A DNA stretch of 11,129 nucleotides, taken from IMG/VR virus record IMGVR_UViG_2617270947_000015. The stretch is one strand, 5' to 3'. Below the pieces are notes generated by a model. That model worked only from the letters and a program-made list of their open reading frames with translations. It was not told where the DNA came from and did no database searches. Position 1 is the stretch's first letter. Each line of letters opens with the position of its first letter. Made by a program: the position numbers and the translations under genes. Positions 1 to 11,129 of the stretch are shown here, one piece after another. Origin of the DNA: a virus (Duplodnaviria > Heunggongvirae > Uroviricota > Caudoviricetes).

Positions 1-327
1 TCACTTTTTCCAGAGGCGGTCGAACTCCGCCTTCGCAAAATAAGCGGAAGCCTGGCGAAGGATATCGTTACTGCGGCGCAGTTCACGATTTTCACGTTCC
101 AGCTCTTTCAGACGCTGACGTTCAGCGGTGGTGAGCCCTCCATCACCGCCCCCGGTATCCCGCTCATGCTGGCGAACCCAGACACGCAGAGTCTCCGGCG
201 TACAGCCAATCTTTGGAGCAATGGAACAAATTGTCGCCCATTGTGAGTCATATTCGCTCTGACTTTCCAGAACCATACGGACTGCCCGTTGACGGACTTC
301 GGGGGAAAAACGAGTATTTTTAGTCAT
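1..327 (-). CDS. IS3-family transposase OrfA (108 aa, HTH protein)
   Basis: Translation [21 protein letters not shown]...[32 protein letters not shown] has the typical IS3-family OrfA HTH plus leucine-zipper layout. It lies 54 bp inside the terminal inverted repeat. Confidence 0.85.
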
Positions 328-381
328 CCTGTTTACCTCTTTCTCAGGAAGTTTAGTCTCCAGGATTCCCGGGGCGGTTCA
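1..381 (-). mobile_element. Partial IS3-family insertion sequence (IS629/IS1203/IS3411-like); one terminus at 381, remainder off the left edge
   Basis: Read on the minus strand from 381 the sequence is TGAACCGCCCCGGGAATCCTGGAGACTAAACTTCC...AGGTAAACAGG-ATG, which matches my recollection of the IS629-type terminal inverted repeat followed directly by orfA. The orfA ORF is complete; orfB would lie beyond position 1. Confidence 0.8.
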
Positions 382-716
382 GGGGCTTCGTTCGTCCTGA
401 AAAACAGAATCTGCAAAATTTTGCCGAAATTATTCCGGTTATTTCCGGCCTTACTGGCGGGAGTGAAACCAATATTGTTAACGCCAGAGCGTTGCAGATG
501 TTTGATGATAAAAAGGGAGTAAATTTAACTTACACCCCTGACGGCAATCAGAATATGAGCATTATCTCTGAGTCAGGTTTCTACAAACTAATAAAAACAA
601 AAAGCGCCCCGTTGCCGGAGCGCCTTTGTGAACAATTAACCTACTGCGCAAAAAATGAATCTGAGCAGTGGGATTATATCAACCATGTGGAGAAGCGCCA
701 CAATTGCCGAATAACG

Positions 717-747
717 GGCAAAACAAAGGCCACCCGCTACGGTGGCC
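717..747 (-). terminator. Rho-independent terminator for the leftward small-gene operon
   Basis: Perfect 7-bp stem GGCCACC (728-734) / GGTGGCC (741-747) with a 6-nt loop. On the minus strand it is followed by TTTGTTTTG. It sits 80 bp downstream of the minus-strand ORF that ends at 827. Confidence 0.6.
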
Positions 748-826
748 CCTCGACACAAGCTACACGTTATCCCCAACGCATGAGCATTGCCAACAATGCC
801 ACATTTGCGGCTGGTGGGCAATGCAA

Positions 827-1000
827 TCAGTCTGGTTCAGTTCGTTGCCATACCTGCAATGAGCGCTTTTCCCTGTACTCTTTAAGGAATTGCTCAAGGG
901 CAAAAGCACATGGCGCGAATCTTTCTGATTCATGCTCTATCTTTCTGCGCCGTCTTTTCCGTGCCGGTGATAATGTTTTGGTCAATTCTTTATCGGTCAT
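827..1000 (-). CDS. Hypothetical small basic protein (57 aa from the second ATG)
   Basis: Lys/Arg/Glu-rich translation MTDKELTKTLSPARKRRRRKIEHESERF.... An AGGA lies about 9 nt upstream of the ATG at 1000; the ORF-track start at 1015 has no Shine-Dalgarno. It is second in the leftward operon and is followed by the terminator at 717-747. Confidence 0.5.
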   Translation of the reverse strand: MTDKELTKTLSPARKRRRRKIEHESERFAPCAFALEQFLKEYREKRSLQVWQRTEPD

Positions 1001-1057
1001 TGTGTTGTCCTGCATAGCAATGCGCCGTAGTTACTCACACCACGGCGCTGGTGATGG

Positions 1058-1237
1058 TTACTCCTGCTCTTTGGCCTTGCGGCGCTGGCGGCGTTTGATT
1101 TCGCCGCGCATGGCTGCGTTTATAAACTGTCCCGTGCTTTCGCCTTCTTCTTTCACGTTCTCCATGCCTTCAATAATTTCATGGGCAATACGTGCAGTTA
1201 CAGATTGTGATTTTGCATTCTTTGGACCCGTTGCCAT
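1058..1237 (-). CDS. Hypothetical small protein (59 aa); candidate regulator, first gene of the leftward operon
   Basis: The internal ATG at 1237 is preceded on the minus strand by GAGGGG at good spacing (GAGGGGTTAAAC-ATG). Translation is MATGPKNAKSQSVTARIAHEIIEGMENVKEEGESTGQFINAAMRGEIKRRQRRKAKEQE. It sits directly beside the operator-bearing divergent promoter region. The ORF-track start at 1276 is probably too long. Confidence 0.5.
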   Translation of the reverse strand: MATGPKNAKSQSVTARIAHEIIEGMENVKEEGESTGQFINAAMRGEIKRRQRRKAKEQE

Positions 1238-1257
1238 GTTTAACCCCTCATGTTTTT

Positions 1258-1339
1258 GGTGTAAGACAATATACACGAAAAAAAAATATTTTGAAGGGTT
1301 GACGTGTAAGACACCATTGTTTTACATTGTGTCTTACAC
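1258..1339. promoter_or_regulatory. Divergent promoter region with three copies of an 11-bp operator-like motif
   Basis: GGTGTAAGACA at 1258-1268, GTGTAAGACAC at 1304-1314 and its exact inverse GTGTCTTACAC at 1329-1339. Rightward candidate promoter: TTGACG (1299-1304) and TACATT (1323-1328), 18-bp spacer. Leftward candidate on the minus strand: TTCAAA and TATATT around 1270-1297. The motifs overlap the spacer or sit just downstream of the -10 of both promoters. Confidence 0.55.
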
Positions 1340-1436
1340 CTTATTGATGAAAGGCACAGAAACGACGAAACCCCGCACTGTAGGAGCAGTAACGGGGCTT
1401 CTAACCACCAACGATAGCAACAGTATCGAGGTAGCT

Positions 1437-1637
1437 ATGAGAAATCATACCACACACCCGAAAGGGCGGGACTCGCACAACCTGAATAAATACATCTGGC
1501 GTTTTATCGCCCTGAGCACGGCACAACCGCGCGTGATTACCATTGAGGCCACCAGCGAACAGGAAGCACGCCAGCAATCTCCGGCTGGCTGCGTGATGGT
1601 ATTTGCTGCCCGTATTCGTCAGGGGGTAGGCTTATGA
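1437..1637 (+). CDS. Hypothetical protein (66 aa), first gene of the rightward operon
   Basis: GAGGT Shine-Dalgarno 5 nt before the ATG at 1437. Translation MRNHTTHPKGRDSHNLNKYIWRFIALSTAQPRVITIEATSEQEARQQ.... Its stop overlaps the next start (ATGA). The long 492..1637 track ORF is in the same frame but its upstream part looks non-coding. Confidence 0.5.
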   Translation: MRNHTTHPKGRDSHNLNKYIWRFIALSTAQPRVITIEATSEQEARQQSPAGCVMVFAARIRQGVGL

Positions 1638-1864
1638 GCCAGGAAATCACACTACAACAGGCAGCAGAACGCGCCCACCAAATCGAAGTTATTTGCGCAC
1701 TGGCAGAGGATTACCCTAGCATGATGACCGACAGCGAATCAGGGGCAATCATCGGCTTACTTAAACGCCTTAGCGGTGAGGTCTGCGTATTCCTGAGCGA
1801 TGAACAGGAAAGAAGAACGCTTATTTCTAACGAAAAAAAATGCGGAGGGGTACATGTGCAATAA
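1634..1864 (+). CDS. Hypothetical protein (76 aa)
   Basis: AGGGGGTAGG Shine-Dalgarno upstream and ATGA overlap with the preceding gene, indicating translational coupling. Translation MSQEITLQQAAERAHQIEVICALAEDYPSMMTDSESGAIIGLLKRL.... Confidence 0.55.
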   Translation: MSQEITLQQAAERAHQIEVICALAEDYPSMMTDSESGAIIGLLKRLSGEVCVFLSDEQERRTLISNEKKCGGVHVQ

Positions 1865-2084
1865 AACCACACCGGACGCAGCAGAAGAAGCAATGCAAAT
1901 ACTGATACGTGCGCTCGTTGATGTTACCCACATGGTGGAGATTATGGAGAGAAAATCACAGTCGGAGCACGACAAAAGAAAACTTAAAACAATAAAAATA
2001 ATTGCCAAAAACTCGCTGATAAAAGTTACAGACATCCTTAATGAGGACATTAAAAGAATAAGGGAGAAAATTTGTGATGCATAA
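1854..2084 (+). CDS. Hypothetical protein (76 aa), AT-rich cargo gene A
   Basis: Internal ATG at 1854 preceded by GGAGGGG; the ORF-track start at 1800 would overlap the previous gene by 65 nt. Translation MCNKTTPDAAEEAMQILIRALVDVTHMVEIMERKSQSEHDKRKLKTIKIIAKN... is predicted helical. The local sequence is visibly more AT-rich than its flanks. Confidence 0.5.
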   Translation: MCNKTTPDAAEEAMQILIRALVDVTHMVEIMERKSQSEHDKRKLKTIKIIAKNSLIKVTDILNEDIKRIREKICDA

Positions 2085-2304
2085 AATCCCTTTTGAAGTA
2101 TTAATCCACTCTGAAAACGCATTAATTAAAGCACGCGAAATGAATGCGTTGTTAATTAAATTAATTGAAGTGCCGGAAGGTGGCGAAGATCATTCATCAT
2201 TAATGTTTGCCGCTGTTCAGACATTATTGACACCTGTTATTGATGAACTCAATAAGGCTATGGCAATTCACGAGAATAATAAAGCGCCCCACACCGGAGA
2301 ATAA
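2077..2304 (+). CDS. Hypothetical protein (75 aa), AT-rich cargo gene B
   Basis: ATG at 2077 overlaps the stop of the previous ORF (GTGATGCATAA) with AGGGAG upstream. Translation MHKIPFEVLIHSENALIKAREMNALLIKLIEVPEGGEDHSSLMFAAVQTLL.... AT-rich. Confidence 0.5.
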   Translation: MHKIPFEVLIHSENALIKAREMNALLIKLIEVPEGGEDHSSLMFAAVQTLLTPVIDELNKAMAIHENNKAPHTGE

Positions 2305-2309
2305 AAATA

Positions 2310-2609
2310 ATGAAACTTAAATATTCTGGCTTAACTGCCAGTGGCAAAACTCGCACTAAATTCATGCGCGGTGATATTTACCGCGACCAGTACGGCGGCA
2401 CGGTAATGATTAAGGGCGTGGAGGAACGGCGCGTAACCTACCGTCGTGAAGGCTACGAATATGATTGCGTGATGCCTGTTTATCAGTTCGATCGTGATTT
2501 TTCTCTGGTGCAGGCCGTACCGCGTAACGTGCCCACCAGCAGGGAGAAAGCACGCGCCAATATTCAGGAAATAAAAAAGATGCTTAACGTATTCAGGGGT
2601 AAGAAATGA
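2310..2609 (+). CDS. Hypothetical protein (99 aa) immediately upstream of and coupled to the primase gene
   Basis: GGAGA Shine-Dalgarno upstream; its stop overlaps the primase start at 2606. Translation MKLKYSGLTASGKTRTKFMRGDIYRDQYGGTVMIKGVEERRVTYRREGYEYD.... Confidence 0.6.
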   Translation: MKLKYSGLTASGKTRTKFMRGDIYRDQYGGTVMIKGVEERRVTYRREGYEYDCVMPVYQFDRDFSLVQAVPRNVPTSREKARANIQEIKKMLNVFRGKK

Positions 2610-4360
2610 AACTGGCACCGAACGTAAAAAAACAACCACGCGGAATAAAACACAAAGACACAGAGGTAATTATTTTCGCGGGTAGTGATGCGTGGTCACA
2701 TGCAAAACAGTGGCAGGAGCAGGACGGCCCCGCATCCGGCGATAATGTGCCGCCTGTGTGGCTTGGGCCAAATCAGCTTGCCGAACTTGATGCGCTGAAA
2801 ATTGTTCCGGATGGGAAAAAGCGCGTAAGGCTGTACCAGGCCGGAGAACTGGATTTAGTGGAGACCAAAAAGATTGGTCAGAAGCTGGCGGCGGCAGATA
2901 TTCAGGACGCAAATTTTTACCCTGATGGTATGCACGGTCAGAAGGTGGAGAACTGGCGCGAATATCTGGCCCGTGAGCGCCAGAATCTTTCTGATGGTCT
3001 GGTCATTGAGCTTCCGGTAAAGCAAAAGGCGCAACTTTCGCAGATGGCGGACAGTGAGCGCGCGCAGCTGCTTGCCGATCGCTTTGATGGCGTTTGCGTA
3101 CATCCTGAAAGTGAAATCGTTCACGTATGGCGCGGCGGGGTATGGTGTCCGGTCAGCACAATGGAACTTAGCCGCGAAATGGTGGCGATCTATTCAGAGC
3201 ACAGGGCCACTTTCAGCAAGCGCGTAATCAATAACGCCGTGGAAGCGTTAAAAGTTATTGCCGAACCAATGGGCGAGCCGTCCGGCGATTTGCTGCCGTT
3301 CGCCAATGGTGCGCTTGACCTGAAAACGGGGGAATTTTCCCCGCACACGCCGGAGAACTGGATCACCACGCACAACGGCATTGAGTACACGCCACCAGCA
3401 CCAGGGGAGAACATCCGCGATAACGCGCCAAACTTTCATAAATGGCTTAAGCACGCAGCCGGAAAAGACCCGCGCAAGATGATGCGTATATGTGCCGCGC
3501 TGTACATGATTATGGCGAACCGGTACGACTGGCAGATGTTTATTGAGGCCACCGGAGACGGCGGGAGCGGTAAAAGTACATTCACGCACATAGCCAGCCT
3601 TCTGGCAGGGAAACAGAACACGGTAAGCGCTGAAATGACATCGCTTGATGATGCTGGTGGACGTGCGCAGGTTGTCGGGAGTCGTCTTATCGTCCTAGCT
3701 GACCAGCCGAAATATACAGGCGAAGGAACGGGCATCAAGAAAATCACGGGCGGTGACCCCGTGGAAATTAACCCGAAATACGAAAAGCGTTTCACGGCTG
3801 TAATCAGGGCGGTGGTGCTGGCGACCAACAATAACCCGATGATATTCACCGAACGGGCCGAAGGTGTGGCACGTCGTCGCGTGATTTTCCGTTTCGACAA
3901 TATCGTCAGTGAGGCCGAAAAAGACAGGGAGCTACCGGAAAAGATCGCGGCTGAAATCCCTGTCATTATCCGCCGATTGCTGGCGAACTTTACCGACCCT
4001 GAGAAGGCACGGGCTTTACTACTGGAACAGCGTGACGGTGATGAAGCACTGGCAATAAAGCAACAGACGGATCCGGTTATTGAGTTTTGCCAGTTCCTGA
4101 ATTTTCTGGAGGAAGCGCGCGGCCTGATGATGGGGGGCGGTGGCGATTCAGTGAAGTACACGACCAGGAACAGCCTTTACCGCGTCTATCTGGCGTTTAT
4201 GGCATACGCAGGCAGGAGCAAACCGCTAAACGTAAATGACTTTGGAAAGGCTATGAAGCCTGCCGCAAAAGTTTACGGACATGAATATATTACGCGGAAA
4301 GTTAAGGGGGTAACGCAGACTAACGCAATAACAACAGACGAGTGCGACGCGTTTTTATAA
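2606..4360 (+). CDS. Satellite/phage replication protein: P4/D5-family primase-helicase-like NTPase (584 aa)
   Basis: Walker A GDGGSGKST and Walker B-like RLIVLAD motifs in the C-terminal half, with the overall D5_N / P4-family primase C-terminal (SF3 helicase-like) layout. It is followed immediately by an iteron array. The N-terminal ~300 aa are of unclear domain identity. Confidence 0.85.
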   Translation: MKLAPNVKKQPRGIKHKDTEVIIFAGSDAWSHAKQWQEQDGPASGDNVPPVWLGPNQLAELDALKIVPDGKKRVRLYQAGELDLVETKKIGQKLAAADIQDANFYPDGMHGQKVENWREYLARERQNLSDGLVIELPVKQKAQLSQMADSERAQLLADRFDGVCVHPESEIVHVWRGGVWCPVSTMELSREMVAIYSEHRATFSKRVINNAVEALKVIAEPMGEPSGDLLPFANGALDLKTGEFSPHTPENWITTHNGIEYTPPAPGENIRDNAPNFHKWLKHAAGKDPRKMMRICAALYMIMANRYDWQMFIEATGDGGSGKSTFTHIASLLAGKQNTVSAEMTSLDDAGGRAQVVGSRLIVLADQPKYTGEGTGIKKITGGDPVEINPKYEKRFTAVIRAVVLATNNNPMIFTERAEGVARRRVIFRFDNIVSEAEKDRELPEKIAAEIPVIIRRLLANFTDPEKARALLLEQRDGDEALAIKQQTDPVIEFCQFLNFLEEARGLMMGGGGDSVKYTTRNSLYRVYLAFMAYAGRSKPLNVNDFGKAMKPAAKVYGHEYITRKVKGVTQTNAITTDECDAFL

Positions 4361-4373
4361 TTTTTTGTAATTG

Positions 4374-4600
4374 CTGTCTACCCTGTCTACCTGAGTAAAG
4401 AAAAATACATTTAATTCAGTGCATTAAGTTAGGTAGACAGCCTTTTTTTACTGTCTACCCACTATCTACCCTCTCTACCTGATTTTACCTGAATCAGACA
4501 GGGAGGTAGACACGGGGTAGATAGTGGATAAAAGCACTCTACCCCGCTGAAAGCCGCGCCATTACTGGCATGAGGGCCACTAAGGTAGATAAGGTAGACA
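4374..4600. repeat. Iteron array, putative replication origin
   Basis: At least 11 copies of an 8-mer TGTCTACC / GGTAGACA (variants TATCTACC, GGTAGATA, CTCTACC) in both orientations, e.g. 4376-4383, 4384-4391, 4432-4439, 4452-4459, 4463-4470, 4505-4512, 4517-4524, 4584-4591, 4593-4600. Non-coding and directly downstream of the primase-helicase gene. Confidence 0.8.
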
Positions 4601-4927: not shown

Positions 4928-5346
4928 CAGCACAGATAGCAGCTTACGGGCGGCTGGTGGACGACCCGCAGGTAAAACAGACCAGCAAGGGCACACCGAT
5001 GACGCTGGCGCGTATGGCGGTCCCCCTTCCGTGCAGCCAGGCAGATGACGGAACGGCGACGATGTGGTTATCCGTCCTGGCATTTGGCAGACAGGCCGAA
5101 GCACTGGAAAGGCACCGCAAGGGTGAACTCCTGAGCGTGGCGGGTAACATGCAGATCAGCCAGTGGACTGGGCAGAACGGAGAAACGCGGCAGGGCTGGC
5201 AGGTTATCGCAGACAGTGTAATCAGTGCGCGAACGGCGCGACTGGGCGGCAAAAAAGGTCAACAGGGCCAGGCTACTGACGCGCTGAACAGGGCAAAACA
5301 ACAGGCGGGGAATGATGATCCGTACGGGGATAACATACCGTTTTAA
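4924..5346 (+). CDS. ssb: Single-stranded DNA-binding protein (SSB-like, 140 aa)
   Basis: GGAGAGG Shine-Dalgarno. OB-fold-like core (LSVLAFGRQAEALERHRKGELLSVAGNMQISQWTGQNGETRQGWQVIADSV) followed by a Gly/Gln-rich linker and an acidic C-terminal tip DDPYGDNIPF, resembling the SSB DDDIPF tail. Confidence 0.8.
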   Translation: MTAQIAAYGRLVDDPQVKQTSKGTPMTLARMAVPLPCSQADDGTATMWLSVLAFGRQAEALERHRKGELLSVAGNMQISQWTGQNGETRQGWQVIADSVISARTARLGGKKGQQGQATDALNRAKQQAGNDDPYGDNIPF

Positions 5347-5362
5347 GCGACGAGAGACAGAA

Positions 5363-5384
5363 GCCGGAGCAATCCGGCTTTTTT
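5363..5384 (+). terminator. Rho-independent terminator after the replication operon
   Basis: Stem GCCGGA (5363-5368) / TCCGGC (5373-5378), loop GCAA, then TTTTTT (5379-5384). Nearly identical to the hairpin at 7804-7826. Confidence 0.7.
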
Positions 5385-5450
5385 ACGGGTCCTCCTGGCG
5401 GGGTGGGCCTGAACACGGGGCGGGAAGCGCGGAAAAAAGCGCATTTTTGT
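5385..5450 (+). other. Degenerate cos-like sequence (direct, diverged copy of the cos site at 7827-7900)
   Basis: ACGGGTCCT...ACGGGGCGGGAAGCGCGG...GCATTTTTG aligns with ACGGGTCCTTTCCGG...ACGGGGCGGCGACCTCGCGGGTTTTCGCTATTTATG of copy A, but with many substitutions inside the cosN-equivalent. Confidence 0.5.
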
Positions 5451-5565
5451 GATTTTATCGTCATCATCATCATGAGCGTAATTTATTGTTTTTAATTGTT
5501 TTGATGCAAAAAAGATGATGGTTGTGGTTAATTTTCGTTCGACATCTTTGCAGGCAGATAAAAAA

Positions 5566-5602
5566 GCCCGATAAGGTCAGAGGTGGCTTATCGGGCTTTT
5601 GC
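5566..5602. terminator. Strong hairpin flanked by A/T runs on both sides (potentially bidirectional terminator)
   Basis: Perfect 10-bp stem GCCCGATAAG (5567-5576) / CTTATCGGGC (5588-5597), preceded by AAAAAA and followed by TTTTG. It lies in a ~400-bp stretch with no convincing ORF. Confidence 0.6.
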
Positions 5603-5677
5603 ATATGAGGCTTTTTGGTGCACTGACACACATGAGCGGGATCATCATTTCATAATTTGCAACACAACTCAATATCA

Positions 5678-5726
5678 TTGCACAAAACGCAATCCTGATT
5701 ATAATCAGAGCTGGATGAACATCCAG
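5678..5726 (+). promoter_or_regulatory. Candidate promoter of the capsid operon with an operator palindrome at the predicted start
   Basis: TTGCAC (5678-5683), 16-bp spacer, perfect TATAAT (5700-5705). A perfect 7-2-7 palindrome CTGGATGAACATCCAG (5711-5726) follows immediately downstream of the -10. Confidence 0.5.
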
Positions 5727-5761
5727 TTATGATTTTTTAAGTCGAAGAGGAATTTCTTACT

Positions 5762-5968
5762 ATGGCTGAAGAGAAAAAAGGCGGTGTTTCGGTGTACATA
5801 AGCCCCGAAATCGTGGAGGTGCTCAAGCAGCGCCACAAAAAAAACTATGAGGCTGGCGTGGCGGCTGGACTGGATCCGCTGATGACGCCGGAGCCGTCGA
5901 TAGGTTCACTTGTACGCTCTTATTTACTTGCGGCGCTTGGGATGCATAAAAATTATGGGGGTGAATAA
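5762..5968 (+). CDS. Hypothetical small protein (68 aa), translationally coupled to the major capsid gene
   Basis: GAGGAA Shine-Dalgarno; its stop TAA overlaps the capsid gene ATG at 5968 (TAATGG). Translation MAEEKKGGVSVYISPEIVEVLKQRHKKNYEAGVAAGLDPLMTPEPSIGSLVRSYLLAALGMHKNYGGE. Confidence 0.55.
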   Translation: MAEEKKGGVSVYISPEIVEVLKQRHKKNYEAGVAAGLDPLMTPEPSIGSLVRSYLLAALGMHKNYGGE

Positions 5969-7023
5969 TGGCAGGCAAAGCAACGGCACTTAACACTAAC
6001 CAGCTTTTCATGTACCTGAATCGCGGGGATATTGCGGATTTTAAATTCAGCCCTCTGTTTACTACGCTGTTTTTCCCGAACGTGGCGACATTCAGCACGC
6101 AAAACATCATGCTGGATACCCTGGACATTGAAGAAGTCACCATGTCGGCGTTTTGTTCGCCTATGGTGGGTAGCCAGGTTCAGCGCGATAAAGGGTACGA
6201 AACCAGCACGATTAAACCTGGCTACATGAAGCCAAAGCACGAAATCGATCCAACGAAAACCATCATGCGCATGGCTGGAGAAGATCCGGCACAGCTTAAC
6301 GACCCTACCTATCGCCGTATGCGCCTGATTACTGGCAATATGCGCCGCCAGATAAACGCCATAAAAGCGCGCGTGGAATGGCTGGCGGTAAATGCGGTAA
6401 CGACCGGAAAAAACATCATTGAGGGCGAAGGCATAGAGCGCTATGAAATCGACTGGAAGATACCGGAAAAAAACATCATAGAGCAGGCCGACGGGAAAAA
6501 ATGGTCAGAGCAGGACAAAGAAACCCACGATCCAATCTATGATATCGAACTATACGCCGATCAGGCTGGTTGCCCCGCAAACGTCATGATTATGGGCGCT
6601 GAGGTATGGCGAACGTTACGCAGCTTTAAAAAATTCCGTGAGCTGTACGATCTTTCCCGTGGTTCAGAATCCGCCGCCGAACTGGCCTGTAAAAACCTGG
6701 GCGAAGTGGTGAGCTTTAAAGGCTATCTTGGTGATCTGGCCCTTATCGTCTATTCCGGCAAATACACTGACAGCGATGGTACCGAAAAATATTTCCTTGA
6801 GCCTGATTTGCTGGTCCTGGGCAACACCAACAATAAAGGGCTGGTGGCCTATGGTGCGATAATGGATCAGGAAGCGGTAAGAACGGGCGCAACACAAAAC
6901 ATGTTTTACCCGAAAAACTGGATTGAGGACGGCGATCCGGCGATTGAGTACGTGCAGACACACAGTGCACCGCAGCCGGTACCGGCAGATATTCGCAAAT
7001 TTGTTACCGTCAAAATTGGTTAA
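5968..7023 (+). CDS. Major capsid protein, lambda gpE-like (351 aa)
   Basis: Collinear similarity to lambda gpE as I recall it: FKFSPLF..LFF, TIKPGYMKPKHEIDP, EDPAQLNDPTYRRMR, KWSEQDKETHDP, LRSFK, SFKGYLGDLALIVYSGKY, LVLGNT, YPKNWIEDGDPA, with similar length. Strong GGGGGTGA Shine-Dalgarno. Confidence 0.85.
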   Translation: MAGKATALNTNQLFMYLNRGDIADFKFSPLFTTLFFPNVATFSTQNIMLDTLDIEEVTMSAFCSPMVGSQVQRDKGYETSTIKPGYMKPKHEIDPTKTIMRMAGEDPAQLNDPTYRRMRLITGNMRRQINAIKARVEWLAVNAVTTGKNIIEGEGIERYEIDWKIPEKNIIEQADGKKWSEQDKETHDPIYDIELYADQAGCPANVMIMGAEVWRTLRSFKKFRELYDLSRGSESAAELACKNLGEVVSFKGYLGDLALIVYSGKYTDSDGTEKYFLEPDLLVLGNTNNKGLVAYGAIMDQEAVRTGATQNMFYPKNWIEDGDPAIEYVQTHSAPQPVPADIRKFVTVKIG

Positions 7024-7035
7024 CGGGGGGATTCT

Positions 7036-7371
7036 ATGGACACTCCATACATTGAGTTATTTGCAGGCAGTCAGCAGGTCGCCACGACGCTGGTACATTT
7101 TGCCGCTGATGCTGGCGTTATTCAGGAATTTACCCCGCTGATGCTGGCAGACAATGGCGAGTTTAAGCCGTGGGATGGTCAGGAATCTGGCAAGGCTGTT
7201 TATCTGACCTCGTACCCTGTGGACACGTCAAAGCAGAAATCAGCACAGTGTTACAAGACGGGGATTTTCAATATTGCCGCCGTTAACTGGCCTGAGAGCG
7301 TCGACACCGATGCGAAAAAATGCGCCGCCTTTGCGGGTTCTGGCGTATCCGTTCAGCCGCTGGCCCGATAA
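7036..7371 (+). CDS. Head decoration protein, lambda gpD-like (111 aa)
   Basis: Same length class as lambda gpD with shared motifs TPLML, WDG, YKTGIF (lambda YKSGTF), WPE, DAKK.AAFAG. GGGGGG Shine-Dalgarno. Adjacent to the gpE-like gene. Confidence 0.75.
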   Translation: MDTPYIELFAGSQQVATTLVHFAADAGVIQEFTPLMLADNGEFKPWDGQESGKAVYLTSYPVDTSKQKSAQCYKTGIFNIAAVNWPESVDTDAKKCAAFAGSGVSVQPLAR

Positions 7372-7383
7372 GCAGGGGGAACG

Positions 7384-7797
7384 ATGGCAACGAATGAAAG
7401 CGTCATGACGCTACCGCTGGCGAGTAAATTTAAAGCCGAAGCGCGGGCAATGGCTGACAGAGGTTTATCAACCTACGAGGCCGTATATCAACTCAACAAA
7501 CTGGAAGAGCAGGACAAGCCGCGCGCTGATGCGATTATGGCGCTTCATGAACATAACGACTATCAGCCGCTGTTACGTGCAATGGCAAACGTGCCATGTA
7601 TTAGCGTCGATAATGCTCGTGAAATCCTGAACATGACCATAGAGCAGGAGCGCCCAAAGGTTGCGCCGGAGCTTACCGCAGCCTTTGAAAACTTTATGGA
7701 CATGCACAGCCCGAAAGCCGTATCACCCGGCATGGCATACGACGGCAGAAACCAGGGCGATGAAGGCGACGTCGATCGCATACTGAAAACCATCTGA
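7384..7797 (+). CDS. Hypothetical protein (137 aa), last gene of the capsid operon, immediately upstream of cos
   Basis: GGGGGAACG Shine-Dalgarno. Translation MATNESVMTLPLASKFKAEARAMADRGLSTYEAVYQLNKLEEQDKPRADAIMALHEHNDYQPLLRAMANVP.... The terminator hairpin and cos site follow directly. Confidence 0.6.
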   Translation: MATNESVMTLPLASKFKAEARAMADRGLSTYEAVYQLNKLEEQDKPRADAIMALHEHNDYQPLLRAMANVPCISVDNAREILNMTIEQERPKVAPELTAAFENFMDMHSPKAVSPGMAYDGRNQGDEGDVDRILKTI

Positions 7798-7803
7798 CAT
7801 AAG

Positions 7804-7826
7804 GCCGGAGAAATCCGGCTTTTTTT
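7804..7826 (+). terminator. Rho-independent terminator fused to the upstream edge of the cos site
   Basis: Stem GCCGGA (7804-7809) / TCCGGC (7814-7819), loop GAAA, then TTTTTTT (7820-7826). Confidence 0.7.
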
Positions 7827-7900
7827 ACGGGTCCTTTCCGGCATATGGACCCGTTACGGGGCGGCGACCTCGCGGGTTTTCGCTATTTATGACGTTTTTC
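7827..7900 (+). other. Lambda-type cos site (cosQ-cosN plus start of cosB), intact copy A
   Basis: ACGGGTCCTTTCCGG...GTTACG-GGGCGGCGACCTCGCGGGTTTTCGCTATTTATGA. The 12-nt lambda cohesive-end sequence GGGCGGCGACCT is exact at 7859-7870, and the flanks match the lambda right-end/left-end junction as I recall it. A Nu1-like gene follows, as in lambda. Confidence 0.85.
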
Positions 7901-7959
7901 CGTGAAGGTGACACCACCACCACTTGATTAATATTTAACCATGCGGTTAAGGTAACATT

Positions 7960-8400
7960 ATGATTGATAAAGCTTGTTTTGTAAGTCAGCAGGAAATAGC
8001 TGAACATTTCAAGGTTAACAGAACCACTATTCGCGCATGGACCAAACAGGGGATGCCGTATCTTAATGCGGATCGCGGAAAGTCTGGCGGTTATCACATC
8101 GGGCATACATTGCTTTGGTCTTCAGGTAAAAGCCGTCTTGAGGCCATCAGATATCACGTAGAAACCAGTGCGCTGGAAAAAATTATGTTTGCCAGGCTGC
8201 TTTCATCTGAGCGTGACGAGTACTCCAGTGAAGAAACAGAACATCGATTTGATGAAGGTTTGCAGATTTACGGCTATTCACCGGAAGATGTGAGCAAGGC
8301 ACGAAATAAAATGGCTGGCTTTCTGGCTGGGTGGCGTCATGCCGTAAGCGTTCGCCGTGCCAGCATGGAACAATCAGTCGTTACAGAACAGCAAAGTTAA
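7960..8400 (+). CDS. Small-terminase-like DNA-binding protein (lambda Nu1-like winged HTH N-terminus, 146 aa); candidate cos-recognition / packaging-redirection factor
   Basis: N-terminus VSQQEIAEHFKVNRTTIRAWTKQGMPYLNADRGKSGG aligns with lambda Nu1 VNKKQLADIFGASIRTIQNWQEQGMPVLRGGGKGN. It sits about 60 bp downstream of cos, in the lambda Nu1 position, but no large-terminase gene follows. Confidence 0.7.
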   Translation: MIDKACFVSQQEIAEHFKVNRTTIRAWTKQGMPYLNADRGKSGGYHIGHTLLWSSGKSRLEAIRYHVETSALEKIMFARLLSSERDEYSSEETEHRFDEGLQIYGYSPEDVSKARNKMAGFLAGWRHAVSVRRASMEQSVVTEQQS

Positions 8401-8430
8401 AAATCACTTTCTGTTACGCCATCAAATACG

Positions 8431-8580
8431 CAATACAACAACCACGTATTTTTTTAAAACTATTTGATTCAATTAGCATTTTTTTATTTTTAGCATCAAA
8501 AAAACACTATCAGGTTGTTGTATTGCTCTTTATTTTTACTTAGTTATCAAATGGATATGACAAACAATTAAACAACAACC
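8431..8580. repeat. AT-rich non-coding region with three copies of a GGTTGTTGT-type motif (candidate cosB-like protein-binding sites for the inverted cos copy)
   Basis: CAATACAACAACC at 8431-8443 and its perfect inverse GGTTGTTGTATTG at 8513-8525, 69 bp apart, plus AAACAACAACC at 8570-8580. The sequence between them is extremely AT-rich. Confidence 0.5.
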
Positions 8581-8595
8581 TCCCTCTAAAAAAGC

Positions 8596-8663
8596 TCATA
8601 AATAGCGAAAAACCGCGAGGTCGCCGCCCCGTAACGGGCCATAATTCCAGGAAGGACCCGACG
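8596..8663 (-). other. Second lambda-type cos site in inverted orientation (copy C)
   Basis: Minus-strand reading is GGGTCCTTCCTGGAATTATGGCCCGTTACG-GGGCGGCGACCTCGCGGTTTTTCGCTATTTATGA. The reverse complement of the 12-mer, AGGTCGCCGCCC, is at 8618-8629. About 65 bp are near-identical to copy A, but this copy lacks the upstream terminator hairpin. Confidence 0.8.
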
Positions 8664-8693
8664 ACACCAGACTATCAGAACGATGGGGGCACA

Positions 8694-8975
8694 ATGACAG
8701 AAGCCGAAATACTGCGATTAATCCGCCGCGTTGCCGGAATCAGCCAGCAGCATGACGAACAGGCCACGCAGCCGGACAGCGTGACCGCTGAAAATTATGT
8801 GCGTGTTGTTGCTGAGGTGATGCGCCGTGATGGTATCCAGCTTAATGATGTTGATATGCGCGACATACGGATCCGCGTTCTGGAAATGCTGGCCTACAAT
8901 CGCCGCGTTGAACTGTATCGGGAGAAAGAAAAAATAACGTACCACTGGAAGAAGCCGGAGCGGTTGCGGCGGTAA
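8694..8975 (+). CDS. Hypothetical protein (93 aa)
   Basis: GGGGG Shine-Dalgarno 5 nt upstream of the ATG. Translation MTEAEILRLIRRVAGISQQHDEQATQPDSVTAENYVRVVAEVMRRDGIQLNDVDMRDIRIRVLEMLAYNRR.... Confidence 0.55.
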   Translation: MTEAEILRLIRRVAGISQQHDEQATQPDSVTAENYVRVVAEVMRRDGIQLNDVDMRDIRIRVLEMLAYNRRVELYREKEKITYHWKKPERLRR

Positions 8976-9668: not shown

Positions 9669-11129
9669 TTATTCATCTTTCGGCGCAGAATGCTGGCGAC
9701 CAAAAATCACCTCCATCCGCGCACCGCCCAGCATGCTCTCTCCGGCGACGATTTTACCCTCATATTGCTCGGTGATTTCGCGGGCTACCGCCAGCCCTAC
9801 ACCTTGCCCAGGGCGTAAAGTATCAACCCGTTGACCACGGTCGAAAATGACCTCTCGCTTGCTTAATGGAATACCGGGGCCATCATCCTCGACCACAATA
9901 TAGAGATGCTCGTCGGTTTGCCTTGCAGAAATTTCGACAAACTCGAGGCAATATTTACAGGCATTATCCAGCACGTTGCCCATCACCTCGACAAAATCGT
10001 TCTGCTCACCGACAAAGCTGATCTCTGGCGAAATATCGAGAGAGATATTGACCCCTTTGCGTTGATACACTTTGTTCAGCGCTGAGGTGAGATTGTCCAG
10101 CAGTGGGGCGACCGGATGCAGCTCGCGGCTGAGCAATGTCCCGCCGCGCATACTGGCACGATGCAGGTAGTAGCCAATTTGCTGTGAAATGCGGCTGATT
10201 TGCTCCAGCATTACCGGCTCAGCATCACTGACGCTCATCTTTTCACTACGCAGAGAACGCAGCGTACTTTGCAGCACCGCCAGTGGCGTTTTCAGACTAT
10301 GGGTCAGGTCGGTGAGCGTCGTACGGTATTTGTCGTAACGTTCGCGTTCACTTTTTAACAATCGGTTCAGGTTTCGTACCAGACTGGTCAGTTCTCGCGT
10401 TGTGGCTGGATTGAGCAATTCGCGGTTATGTTCTTCCAGTTCGCGGACTTCTTTTGCCAGGGCTTCGATGGGGCGTAAACTCCACCAGGCGGCGACCCAC
10501 AGCAGCGGGATCACTAACAGCAGATTGGCTGAGAGCACATAGATAAACCAGCTCCAGACCATATAGGAACTTTTTAGCTCCACCGGAATGGTATCCACCA
10601 CCACAATGGTTAATTTTGGCATCCGCGATGTTGCCGGGTAGACGTTTACTGCCACCGAGTGGGTCATCTCCGCGTCGTCATCATCTTCCCGCACTTCCTG
10701 CAACTGTTGCTGTATCGAATGATCTCCACTCAGCAAGAGGCTGGTATCGTTAACATCCGCTTCAATTTCATGAAAACCATTCGATTTCAGCCAGTCAGGC
10801 TGGATCATCTTCATCAGCCAGGGCACGTCACGTTGCGCCCATAAAAGCTGCCCGTTCTCATCATAAATTAGCGTCATGGTGGGGCTTTGCTTGTCGATAT
10901 TTTCGGGTAACTCGACATGCAACTTATTGTTTTCCCACTTCGCAAGGGTATAGAACAGATTGCTCTCGCCACGTAACAGCCGAAACGTAGTTTTATCGAA
11001 ACTGACGCTATAACCGATCAGCGCGACCATTCCGTAGGCAAGCGAAAGCACCAGTACTACCGCTGCCGTTGCCAACAGAAAACGTACCCGCAGCGAGAGC
11101 GGGAAAAAAAGACGCAGTAATTTTTTCAT
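9669..11129 (-). CDS. phoQ: Sensor histidine kinase PhoQ of the PhoP/PhoQ two-component system, complete, 486 aa
   Basis: Translation [83 protein letters not shown]...HSAPKDE matches E. coli PhoQ: two transmembrane segments, periplasmic sensor domain, HAMP, DHp histidine box ([12 protein letters not shown]) and HATPase domain. The start codon is the last three bases of the window. Confidence 0.97.

What the first reader, a model, noticed from the sequence alone, without database searches (positions are those of the whole stretch)
8431..8663. Second cos site in inverted orientation with its own repeat-rich flank, convergent with the first
About 65 bp including the cosN 12-mer recur on the opposite strand at 8596-8663. 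The flank on the cosB-equivalent side of this copy is an AT-rich stretch with three GGTTGTTGT-type repeats (two as a perfect 13-bp inverted pair), reminiscent of the R-site/bend layout of a cosB but with unrelated sequence. Two convergent cos sites bracketing a Nu1-like gene is not the lambda arrangement. Possible explanations: dual-helper compatibility, packaging in either direction, an inversion or recombination scar, or a decoy cos.
Basis: seen in the sequence. Interest (0 to 1): 0.85.

Follow-up and report, generated by a model that had tools for sequence, protein, structure and literature searches.

The report
Second, phage-type cos site in satellite
A phage-parasitic island of E. coli carries, back-to-back with its own packaging site, a second complete packaging site copied from a different group of lambda-like phages. 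The second site is already published for a sister island, but its phage origin offers a testable reason for why it is there.

Summary
A 72-nt inverted repeat (7828-7899 / 8589-8660) holds cosQ, cosN and I2 of a lambda-type cos. Three exact GGTTGTTGT copies lie in the 27%-GC flank, against 0.12 expected by chance.

The window is a phage-inducible chromosomal island (PICI) of the EcCICFT073 family, next to phoQ, and the "Nu1-like" gene is rppA. The two sites are the published cos1 and cos2 of EcCICFT073 (Fillol-Salom 2018, 2019), so the core finding is already known.

The papers I could search do not say what the cos2 flank is. It is a genuine phage cosB:
- It is 76-79% identical to the cosB just upstream of terS in prophages of E. 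coli O111:H8 and VR50.
- Its repeats run forward, reverse, forward, like lambda R3, R2 and R1.
- Bp 48-59 (GAGGTTGTTGTT) equal the experimentally defined N15 R3 site, in sequence and position.

Sister islands carry other phage cosB types at cos2: PhiR12_1/O157-prophage type, phage-21 type and SerU-LTIIb type. In 15 of 79 rppA islands the whole cos1-cos2 segment is inverted.

Best reading: cos1 serves Rpp-TerS complexes, and cos2 lets helpers of N15/Monarch specificity package the island in the opposite direction. The function is inferred, not shown.

The parts
7384..7797 (+). 137-aa gene just upstream of cos1. It is the last gene of a capsid module: a gpE-like major capsid protein (5968-7023), a gpD-like decoration protein (7036-7371), and this Nu3/gpC-C-terminal-like protein.
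   Evidence: Pfam PF03864 and PF02924. phrog_1999, and phrog_53 'head maturation protease' positions 495-567 at E 2e-9. The same genes are annotated in CFT073.
7828..7899 (+). cos1 core, the left arm of the inverted repeat: cosQ GGGTCCT at 7829-7835, cosN GGGCGGCGACCT at 7859-7870, then the I2 region. Packaging from here runs rightward.
   Evidence: It is nearly identical to the EcCICFT073 cos1, which is required for transfer by lambda and phi80 (PMC6092414, PMC6739421).
7906..7923 (+). Proposed Rpp-binding site 'R3-PICI', bp 48-65 of cos1, containing ACACCACCACCAC.
   Evidence: The position is the one proposed by Murialdo and Feiss (PMC9026076). The motif is conserved in Klebsiella and Salmonella Rpp islands and in L032-L034.
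7960..8400 (+). rppA, the redirecting phage packaging protein (146 aa).
   Evidence: RppC structure 6hlk, E 5.7e-31. The first 139 residues are identical to the CFT073 protein, and the DNA is nearly identical.
8415..8596 (-). cosB of cos2, Monarch/N15 type. On the - strand from the nick it reads: R3 GAGGTTGTTGTT at 8582-8571 (bp 48-59); an IHF-like site at 8545-8557 (bp 73-85); R2, inverted, at 8513-8521 (bp 109-117); a second IHF-like site at 8457-8469 (bp 161-173); R1 at 8443-8435 (bp 187-195).
   Evidence: 76-79% identity to the cosB directly upstream of terS in the O111:H8 and VR50 prophages, with the repeat boxes invariant. N15 has the same 12-mer at bp 48-59, mapped by mutagenesis (PMC4669245). 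IHF-like sites 12/13. Repeat statistics.
8589..8660 (-). cos2 core, the right arm of the inverted repeat: cosN at 8618-8629, cosQ at 8653-8659 (both read on the - strand), and the I2 region. Packaging from here would run leftward, towards rpp and cos1.
   Evidence: It is identical to the EcCICFT073 cos2 core, which confers lambda- and phi80-mediated transfer on a plasmid (PMC6092414).
8694..8975 (+). 93-aa ORF of unknown function flanking cos2 on its cosQ side. It is conserved in all islands of the family.
   Evidence: phrog_1561, E 3e-57. Annotated as a hypothetical protein in CFT073, PMV-1, O157 and GmF052.

Best explanation
The window holds the packaging module of an EcCICFT073-family PICI, with two complete cos sites that point at each other.

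cos1 (cosQ-cosN-I2 plus the Rpp-specific site) is followed by rppA. It is the site used when Rpp forms a complex with the TerS of lambda-, phi80- or 21-type helpers. This is published for the sister island.

cos2 shares the TerL-read core (cosQ-cosN-I2). On its cosB side it carries an entire phage cosB of the N15/Monarch specificity group: three GGTTGTTGT TerS sites in forward, reverse, forward order, with an IHF-like bend site between R3 and R2. The terS gene that follows this cosB in phages is absent.

Proposed mechanism (inferred):
1. Unmodified terminase of a helper with an N15/Monarch-type TerS binds this cosB.
2. It nicks cosN2 and packages the replicated island concatemer leftward until the next cos2, without Rpp.
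3. This widens the helper range to phages whose TerS has a different DNA-binding domain.

The inverted orientation would keep the two systems apart. Termination needs cosQ ahead of cosN and does not depend on cosB type. A direct-repeat cos2 would therefore end cos1-initiated packaging, whereas an inverted one is presumably not read by the translocating terminase. That last step rests on my recollection of lambda packaging polarity. I did not find it stated in the papers I read.

Shown: the anatomy, the homology to phage cosB, the identity to the mapped N15 R3, the co-variation of TerS DNA-binding domain and repeat type, and conservation and swapping among islands.

Inferred: that cos2 is actually used by such helpers, and that this is why it is kept.
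For: Family and prior experiments
- Same island family, position and orientation as EcCICFT073 cos1/cos2.
- In that island both sites were shown to work. Each cloned site makes a plasmid transferable, the double deletion abolishes transfer, and only the cos1 cosB responds to RppA (PMC6092414, PMC6739421).

The flank is a real phage cosB
- It matches 299 E. coli genomes.
- In O111:H8 02-3334 and VR50 the match ends about 10 bp before a terminase small subunit gene, which is followed by terL and portal genes.
- The repeat boxes and the IHF-like block are the invariant columns, while the spacers diverge.

Link to N15/Monarch specificity
- Bp 48-59 of cos2 is the same 12-mer as in N15, GAGGTTGTTGTT. 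Block mutations there lower yield 7- and 100-fold. The Monarch group has this R3 in a three-R cosB with an IHF site. N15-specific DNA is not packaged by lambda or 21 (PMC4669245).
- The TerS of the matching prophages shares the N15 recognition helix (ISVQAFDKW).
- Phage TerS proteins with nearly identical C-terminal halves but different DNA-binding domains sit next to different repeat types.

Other islands
- Three other cos2 flank types also match phage cosB next to nu1/terS: PhiR12_1 (97%) and an O157 prophage; phage 21 (90% over bp 28-88 of the phage 21 cos record); SerU-LTIIb.
- cos2 is kept in all 64 forward and 15 inverted rppA islands and in all complete IMG/VR loci.
- The 176-bp cosB is 100% identical even where rpp is 91% and the neighbouring ORF 83% identical.

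Orientation
- Termination is not cosB-specific and needs cosQ, cosN and I2 (PMC4669245).
Against: - No experiment has tested an N15/Monarch-type helper on any PICI.
- In EcCICFT073, deleting cos2 raised lambda-mediated transfer (PMC6092414). cos2 is therefore a cost with at least one helper.
- RppA lowered transfer of plasmids that carry phage cos sites (PMC6739421). A cos2 read by free TerS may be shut down whenever Rpp can bind that TerS. Whether Rpp binds Monarch-type TerS is unknown.
- Genomes with this cos2 are not enriched for a resident prophage with the same cosB: 2 of 32 against about 1.6 expected.
- No sequenced phage in the INPHARED collection has this cosB or this TerS DNA-binding domain above 62% identity. 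The cognate helper is known only as prophages.
- More distant Rpp islands in Klebsiella and Salmonella manage with a single cos.
Confidence: 0.6

Rival explanations
1. Tolerated recombination scar. cos2 is left over from exchanges between the island and helper phages at the shared cos core. It has no selected role, and is mildly harmful because free terminase cuts the island DNA there.
For: - Island-phage and island-island recombinants at cos are common: rpp-less islands with two phage-type cos sites in 3 genomes, and a phage cosB plus 9 terS codons fused into rpp in L037.
- Deleting cos2 improves lambda-mediated transfer of EcCICFT073 (PMC6092414).
- Distant Rpp islands lack cos2.
- There is no enrichment of matching resident prophages.
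Against: - cos2 is present and complete (cosQ, cosN, I2, all three R boxes) in every rppA island examined: 64 + 15 genomes and about 20 IMG/VR loci.
- No decayed copies were seen.
- The boxes stay intact at 81-85% overall identity, even in islands with a different cosN.
- The noncoding cosB is better conserved than the flanking genes.
- terS is removed cleanly in all four flank types.
Confidence: 0.2
2. Decoy or interference site. cos2 attracts unmodified helper terminase (TerS homodimers) to island DNA, draining it from phage genomes, or it is cut to modulate packaging. It would not be a productive start site.
For: - PICIs interfere with helper packaging through Rpp (PMC6739421).
- A perfect phage-type cosB would compete for TerS.
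- Island concatemers would present many copies.
Against: - Terminase bound at a complete cos with cosQ-cosN-cosB would be expected to package what it cuts, so decoy and start site are hard to tell apart.
- The EcCICFT073 cos2 supports transfer on its own, both on a plasmid and as the residual transfer of the cos1 deletion (PMC6092414).
- No interference phenotype has been assigned to cos2.
Confidence: 0.07
3. The inverted cos pair exists to make the rpp cassette invertible or exchangeable. It would be a switch or shuffling device rather than a second start site.
For: - A clean inversion of the whole cos1-cos2 segment is found in 15 of 79 rppA islands. L010 is collinear at 98.8% with an in-silico inversion of CFT073.
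- The arms are sometimes homogenised.
- The segment between the arms varies (rppA, or a 180-aa TerS-like gene with its own cosB), while the arms stay conserved.
Against: - The 15 inverted genomes look like one lineage (same 98% identity, similar map positions), so this may be a single event.
- No window-type island is simply inverted.
- On a circle or concatemer both orientations are functionally equivalent, so a switch would change nothing obvious.
- No recombinase is associated.
- In L032-L034 the two cosN cores differ.
Confidence: 0.08
4. Assembly artefact: a collapsed or chimeric repeat.
For: None found.
Against: The same structure is in 64 independent complete genomes, in CFT073, and in IMG/VR contigs. 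Both sites of the sister island have been cloned and tested (PMC6092414).
Confidence: 0.01

Closest known systems
cos2 of the PICI EcCICFT073 (Fillol-Salom et al. 2018 ISME J; 2019 Mol Cell)
   Same: Same island family and attachment region (roxA/phoQ). The cos1 and rppA are nearly identical. cos2 is at the same place, between rpp and the 93-aa ORF, in the same inverted orientation, with an identical cosQ-cosN core.
   Different: The roughly 195-bp cosB side (window about 8400-8596) is a different sequence with sharp boundaries. It is N15/Monarch-type here, and PhiR12_1/O157-prophage type in CFT073. The papers do not mention the orientation in their text. They state that no phage cosB could be identified.
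Complex cosB of the 'Monarch' group of lambda-like prophages, and R3 of phage N15 (Feiss et al. 2015, PMC4669245)
   Same: GAGGTTGTTGTT lies at bp 48-59 from the nick. There are three R boxes with R2 inverted and an IHF-like site between R3 and R2. The flank is 76-79% identical to the cosB of O111:H8/VR50 prophages, whose TerS has the N15 recognition helix.
   Different: No terS follows. The cosB abuts the 3' end of rpp in tail-to-tail orientation. I did not compare it with the Monarch prophage sequence itself.
Phage lambda cos (cosQ-cosN-I2-cosB with R3-I1-R2-R1)
   Same: Exact cosN 12-mer, exact cosQ heptamer at -30..-24, a conserved I2 region, and the same subsite order and orientation pattern.
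   Different: The R sequences are unrelated to lambda's. According to PMC4669245, lambda terminase does not package N15-specific DNA.
cos SaPIs with two putative cos sites (SaPIbov4), cited in PMC6092414
   Same: A satellite with two cos sites.
   Different: Gram-positive host, unrelated sequences, and no Rpp. I did not examine it.

Membership tests
lambda-type cohesive end site (cos) | cosN with the 12-nt cohesive-end sequence | tested here: met
   Exact GGGCGGCGACCT at 8629-8618 on the - strand.
lambda-type cohesive end site (cos) | 7-bp cosQ upstream of cosN at the conserved distance | tested here: met
   GGGTCCT at -30..-24 (8659-8653, - strand). PMC4669245 states that the 7-bp cosQ is highly conserved. 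The sequence and position of the lambda cosQ are from my own knowledge.
lambda-type cohesive end site (cos) | cosB with TerS-binding R sequences (R3, inverted R2, R1) and an IHF site between R3 and R2 | tested here: met
   The three 9-mers run forward, reverse, forward at bp 50-58, 109-117 and 187-195. An IHF-like 12/13 site lies at bp 73-85 and is conserved in phage homologues. This is met at the sequence level only.
lambda-type cohesive end site (cos) | terS (Nu1) gene immediately downstream of cosB | tested here: not met
   On the - strand the cosB runs into the 3' end of rpp. There is no ORF of 40 aa or more on the - strand at 8107-8717. In the homologous prophages terS starts about 10 bp after the match.
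lambda-type cohesive end site (cos) | Cleavage by terminase and ability to initiate packaging | not testable with these tools
   Shown only for the EcCICFT073 cos2, which has a different cosB (PMC6092414).
N15/Monarch packaging-specificity group | R3 sequence matching R3 of N15 at the same distance from the nick | tested here: met
   12 of 12 at bp 48-59 (PMC4669245 section 16).
N15/Monarch packaging-specificity group | Cognate TerS with the N15 recognition helix | tested here: inconclusive
   The island encodes no such TerS. The prophages with the homologous cosB do (ISVQAFDKW identical). The helper for this island is unknown.
EcCICFT073-family PICI (Rpp-type) | Rpp gene preceded by a cos with the Rpp-specific site | tested here: met
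   RppC 6hlk, E 5.7e-31. The first 139 aa are identical to the CFT073 protein. cos1 plus ACACCACCACCAC.
EcCICFT073-family PICI (Rpp-type) | PICI gene content and chromosomal island context (integrase, primase, attachment site) | tested here: met
   D5-type primase, DUF4222 and SSB. phoQ lies at 9669-11129. The near-identical GmF052 island (98.7% identity over window 7700-8800) has an integrase and sits between roxA and phoQ. The layout is the same in CFT073. The integrase itself lies outside the window.
EcCICFT073-family PICI (Rpp-type) | Helper-dependent induction and transfer | not testable with these tools
   Published for EcCICFT073 only.

The most novel reading that the evidence does not exclude
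The convergent cos pair works as a recombinase-free, terminase-operated cassette. Cutting both cosN sites would release a 771-bp fragment (cosB1-rpp-cosB2) whose two ends carry the same 5'-GGGCGGCGACCT overhang. The fragment could then re-anneal and ligate in either orientation, or be swapped with the equivalent fragment of a co-replicating island or phage. This would explain the natural inversion (15 genomes), the sharp-edged swapping of cosB types, and the rpp/terS cassette diversity between conserved arms. Ordinary RecA recombination between the 72-bp arms explains the same data and is more likely. The junction polymorphisms I examined do not discriminate between the two.
Probability: 0.1. 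Interest if true: 0.8.

Novelty: new member of a known kind. Interest (0 to 1): 0.5.

Why it matters
[quoted passage not shown] They also reported that no phage cosB could be recognised in either site.

This analysis gives a concrete answer that can be tested. cos2 is a whole phage cos whose cosB belongs to a known packaging-specificity group, N15/Monarch in this island. Sister islands carry cosB types of other lambdoid phages.

If confirmed, these satellites use two keys: a hijacking protein (Rpp) for one class of helper, and a borrowed native site for another class. The swappable cosB would then be a readable marker of which phages can mobilise a given island. That bears on predicting the spread of island-borne virulence genes. 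Reagents for the test already exist: lambda-N15 hybrid phages and the cos-plasmid transfer assay.

Tried and rejected
- Assembly artefact: rejected, because the structure is in many independent complete genomes.
- DNA search of the window's flank against 50,697 phage records: no match. The homologues are only in prophages. The nearest sequenced TerS DNA-binding domain is N15's, at 62%.
- Scan of species-representative genomes with the 137-aa protein: nothing confirmed. I used IMG/VR and exact-protein look-ups instead.
- Test for a matching prophage in the same genome: no enrichment, 2 of 32 against about 1.6 expected. This neither supports nor refutes helper matching.
- RNA gene, promoter or terminator in the AT-rich flank: no Rfam hit at gathering threshold, and no promoter-like or terminator-like site inside 8401-8590.
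- Simple inversion of a window-type island: none among 5,426 genomes. Only three rpp-less recombinants carry this cosB type in direct orientation.
- Separating terminase cut-and-religate from homologous recombination by arm polymorphisms: inconclusive, because some islands already have identical cosQ sides in both arms.

Full report
**Observation.** The window has a 72-nt inverted repeat, 7828-7899 and 8589-8660, 86% complementary. Each arm contains an exact lambda cohesive-end 12-mer, GGGCGGCGACCT: 7859-7870 on the + strand and 8618-8629 on the - strand. Each also has an exact GGGTCCT 24-30 bp upstream of the nick. The arms stop about 41 bp past the nick. What is duplicated is therefore cosQ-cosN-I2, the part common to lambda-like phages, and the copies diverge where cosB begins.

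The flank on the cosB side of the second copy (8401-8590) is 27% G+C against 49% overall. It holds all three occurrences of GGTTGTTGT in the window, against 0.12 expected, and none of 200 shuffles reached three. Two of them lie in a perfect 14-bp inverted pair.

**What the locus is.** The ORFs are a D5-type primase, DUF4222, SSB, a gpE-like major capsid protein and a gpD-like decoration protein. There is also a 137-aa protein with similarity to the C-terminal (Nu3-like) part of head maturation proteases. phoQ lies at the right end. A near-identical island (98.7%) sits between roxA and phoQ in strain GmF052, with an integrase. CFT073 has the same island at the same place. This is EcCICFT073, the model Gram-negative phage-inducible chromosomal island (PICI).

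The "Nu1-like" ORF 7960-8400 matches the solved RppC structure (6hlk, E 5.7e-31). It is identical to the CFT073 protein for its first 139 residues. It is rppA, not a terminase subunit.

- Each cloned site makes a plasmid transferable by lambda and phi80.
- Deleting cos1 reduces island transfer.
- Deleting cos2 slightly raises phi80-mediated transfer and significantly raises lambda-mediated transfer.
- Deleting both abolishes transfer.
- Only the cosB of cos1 responds to RppA.

[quoted passage not shown] Its cos1, rppA and cos2 core align almost perfectly with the window. The core of the finding is therefore already known.

**What the flank is.** The window and CFT073 differ completely in one block, about 8400-8596. 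This runs from the stop codon of rpp to about bp 33 of cos2.

Read on the - strand from the nick, the window's block has GGTTGTTGT at bp 50-58, its complement at bp 109-117, and GGTTGTTGT again at bp 187-195. An IHF-like 12/13 match lies at bp 73-85. This is the R3-I1-R2-R1 pattern described for lambda-like phages, with R2 inverted (PMC4669245; PMC9026076).

The block has no match in 50,697 phage records, but it matches 299 of 5,426 complete E. coli genomes. In O111:H8 02-3334 and in VR50 the match (76-79% identity) lies in lambdoid prophages. It runs from cosN to about 10 bp before the terminase small subunit gene, which is followed by the large subunit, head-tail joining and portal genes. 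Across ten island and prophage copies, the three repeat boxes and the IHF-like block are the invariant columns, while the spacers vary.

**Which specificity.** Phage N15 has GAGGTTGTTGTT at bp 48-59. The window's cos2 has the same 12-mer at the same position, 8582-8571 on the - strand. In N15 this is R3, defined by block mutations that lower yield 7-fold and 100-fold (PMC4669245, section 16).

The same paper describes a "Monarch" group of prophages with this R3 and the N15 recognition helix, but with a complex three-R cosB and an IHF site. That is the anatomy seen here. It also reports that N15-specific DNA is not packaged by lambda or 21 terminase.

The TerS of the O111-type prophage shares the N15 recognition helix and most of the first 43 residues.

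Two groups of prophage TerS have nearly identical C-terminal halves but unrelated N-terminal DNA-binding domains, and they sit next to different repeat types: GGTTGTTGT versus ATGTCCGG. This co-variation supports reading the repeats as TerS sites.

**Generality.** The three other cos2 flank types also trace to phage cosB.
- The CFT073 block is 97% identical over 138 bp to the region just upstream of nu1 in phage PhiR12_1. It is 89% identical to an O157:H7 prophage.
- The cos2 flank of the PMV-1 island matches bp 28-88 of the phage 21 cos record at 90%.
- The flank of an O157:H7 island matches the nu1 region of phage SerU-LTIIb at 72%.

All six E. coli islands inspected directly have convergent cosN pairs. 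So do all complete IMG/VR rppA loci, with either the window-type or the CFT073-type cosB. The window-type cosB stays 100% identical over 176 bp in an island whose rpp is 91% and whose neighbouring ORF is 83% identical.

A more diverged group (L032-L034) has a different cosN core but the same convergent layout and the same three boxes. Klebsiella and Salmonella Rpp islands have a single cos. cos2 is therefore an addition in one clade, not an ancestral feature.

**Rearrangements.** Of 607 genomes with the island family, 64 have rppA in the forward orientation and 15 have it reversed. One reversed island (L010) is collinear at 98.8% with an in-silico inversion of the CFT073 segment between the two cosN sites. 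The 15 look like one lineage.

Three genomes carry an rpp-less recombinant with two phage-type cos sites facing each other. One IMG/VR island has a phage cosB plus nine terS codons fused into rpp.

It looks like a by-product of inverted homology.

**Mechanism.** My best reading is a two-key system. cos1 is used by Rpp-TerS complexes (published). cos2 is a native phage start site for helpers of another TerS specificity, which would package the concatemer leftward.

Termination needs cosQ, cosN and I2 and ignores cosB type (PMC4669245). A direct-repeat cos2 would therefore act as a terminator for cos1-initiated packaging. An inverted cos2 presents cosQ after cosN, and I expect it to be ignored. 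This point rests on my recollection of lambda packaging polarity and was not tested here.

The main points against:
- The measured cost of cos2 with lambda.
- The possibility that Rpp blocks the very TerS that cos2 needs.
- The absence of enrichment for matching resident prophages (2 of 32).
- The lack of any experiment with an N15/Monarch-type helper.

I put 0.6 on this reading, 0.2 on a tolerated recombination scar, and small weights on a decoy or a designed invertible cassette.

**Verdict.** What I could not find in the searchable literature is the following:
- The assignment of cos2 flanks to specific phage cosB types.
- The identity of this flank's first box to the N15 R3 site.
- The swapping of cosB types among islands.
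- The natural inversion.

This makes a stated open question directly testable. Interest is moderate.

Noticed in passing
window 5762-7797: The island encodes homologues of the lambda major capsid protein E (5968-7023) and decoration protein D (7036-7371), plus a 137-aa protein resembling the Nu3/gpC C-terminal scaffold region (7384-7797). CFT073 has the same genes. Yet the 2018 paper says EcCICFT073 lacks capsid morphogenesis genes and is packaged in phage-sized capsids. What these genes do is unclear.
   Followed up: partly
window 4374-4530: Just downstream of the primase gene there are direct repeats CTGTCTACCCTGTCTACCTGA / CTATCTACCCTCTCTACCTGA (4374-4394, 4462-4482). There is also a 16-nt inverted pair (4456-4471 / 4515-4530). 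This looks like an iteron-type replication origin.
   Followed up: no
window 5363-5384 and 7804-7825: The same hairpin plus T-run (GCCGGAGnAATCCGGCTTTTTT, 95% identical) occurs twice, after the SSB gene and just before cos1. These are probably two copies of one intrinsic terminator. The simple terminator scan of 7700-8800 did not list the second copy.
   Followed up: no
L010 (E. coli WP4-S17-ESBL-08), 5259-6009; 14 further genomes: The whole cos1-rppA-cos2 segment is inverted relative to CFT073, so the phage-type cos faces the chromosome side and rppA is on the opposite strand. In this island both arms have the cos2-type cosQ side.
   Followed up: yes
L006 (STEC2018-607) 3972-4507; L011 (JNEC-KY203); strain GF4: These are rpp-less islands with two phage-type cos sites facing each other: a Monarch-type cosB in direct orientation at the cos1 position, and a CFT073-type cosB at cos2. 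They are separated by about 100 bp of the reversed rpp 3' end. The islands sit next to yejO, not phoQ.
   Followed up: partly
L037 (IMG/VR) 2302-2710: cos1 is followed by a PhiR12_1-type phage cosB and the first nine codons of phage terS. These are fused at a GCCAGGC microhomology to codon ~78 of rpp, which removes the Rpp DNA-binding domain but keeps its C-terminal half in frame.
   Followed up: partly
L032-L034 (IMG/VR), about 2357-2433 and 3116-3192: These diverged islands have non-lambda cosN cores (for example CACCGGGGGTAGCCATACGCGC), and the cores of cos1 and cos2 differ from each other within one island. The two sites would then give different cohesive ends. The host species was not determined.
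   Followed up: no
L002 (CFT073) 7559 and 44745: The island's cos1 and the cos of the neighbouring icd prophage ('phage 4') have the same orientation and lie 37.2 kb apart, spanning phoPQ-purB-icd. Packaging that starts at cos1 in situ could in principle end at the prophage cos and carry this chromosomal stretch. This is speculative.
   Followed up: no
L003 (PMV-1) 6161-6848; L004 (O157:H7) 3157-3844: Sister islands have a 180-aa full-length TerS-like gene in place of rpp, with an N15-like DNA-binding domain. Its own three-repeat cosB follows cos1 (GGTGGTGGTGG..., CAATACACCAACC, TTGGTGTATT) and is 61-62% similar to the window's cos2 cosB.
   Followed up: partly
L041, L044 (Salmonella enterica): These Rpp-type islands are followed directly by lambda-like FI, FII, Z and U genes, so they seem to be embedded in a prophage late region. 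Their single cos lies upstream of a 141- or 142-aa gene that abuts or overlaps rpp, unlike the E. coli layout.
   Followed up: no
window 492-1637: This 381-aa ORF has no Pfam match. In GmF052 the corresponding place holds a truncated BRO-N pseudogene, so the accessory region of the island differs between otherwise near-identical islands.
   Followed up: no
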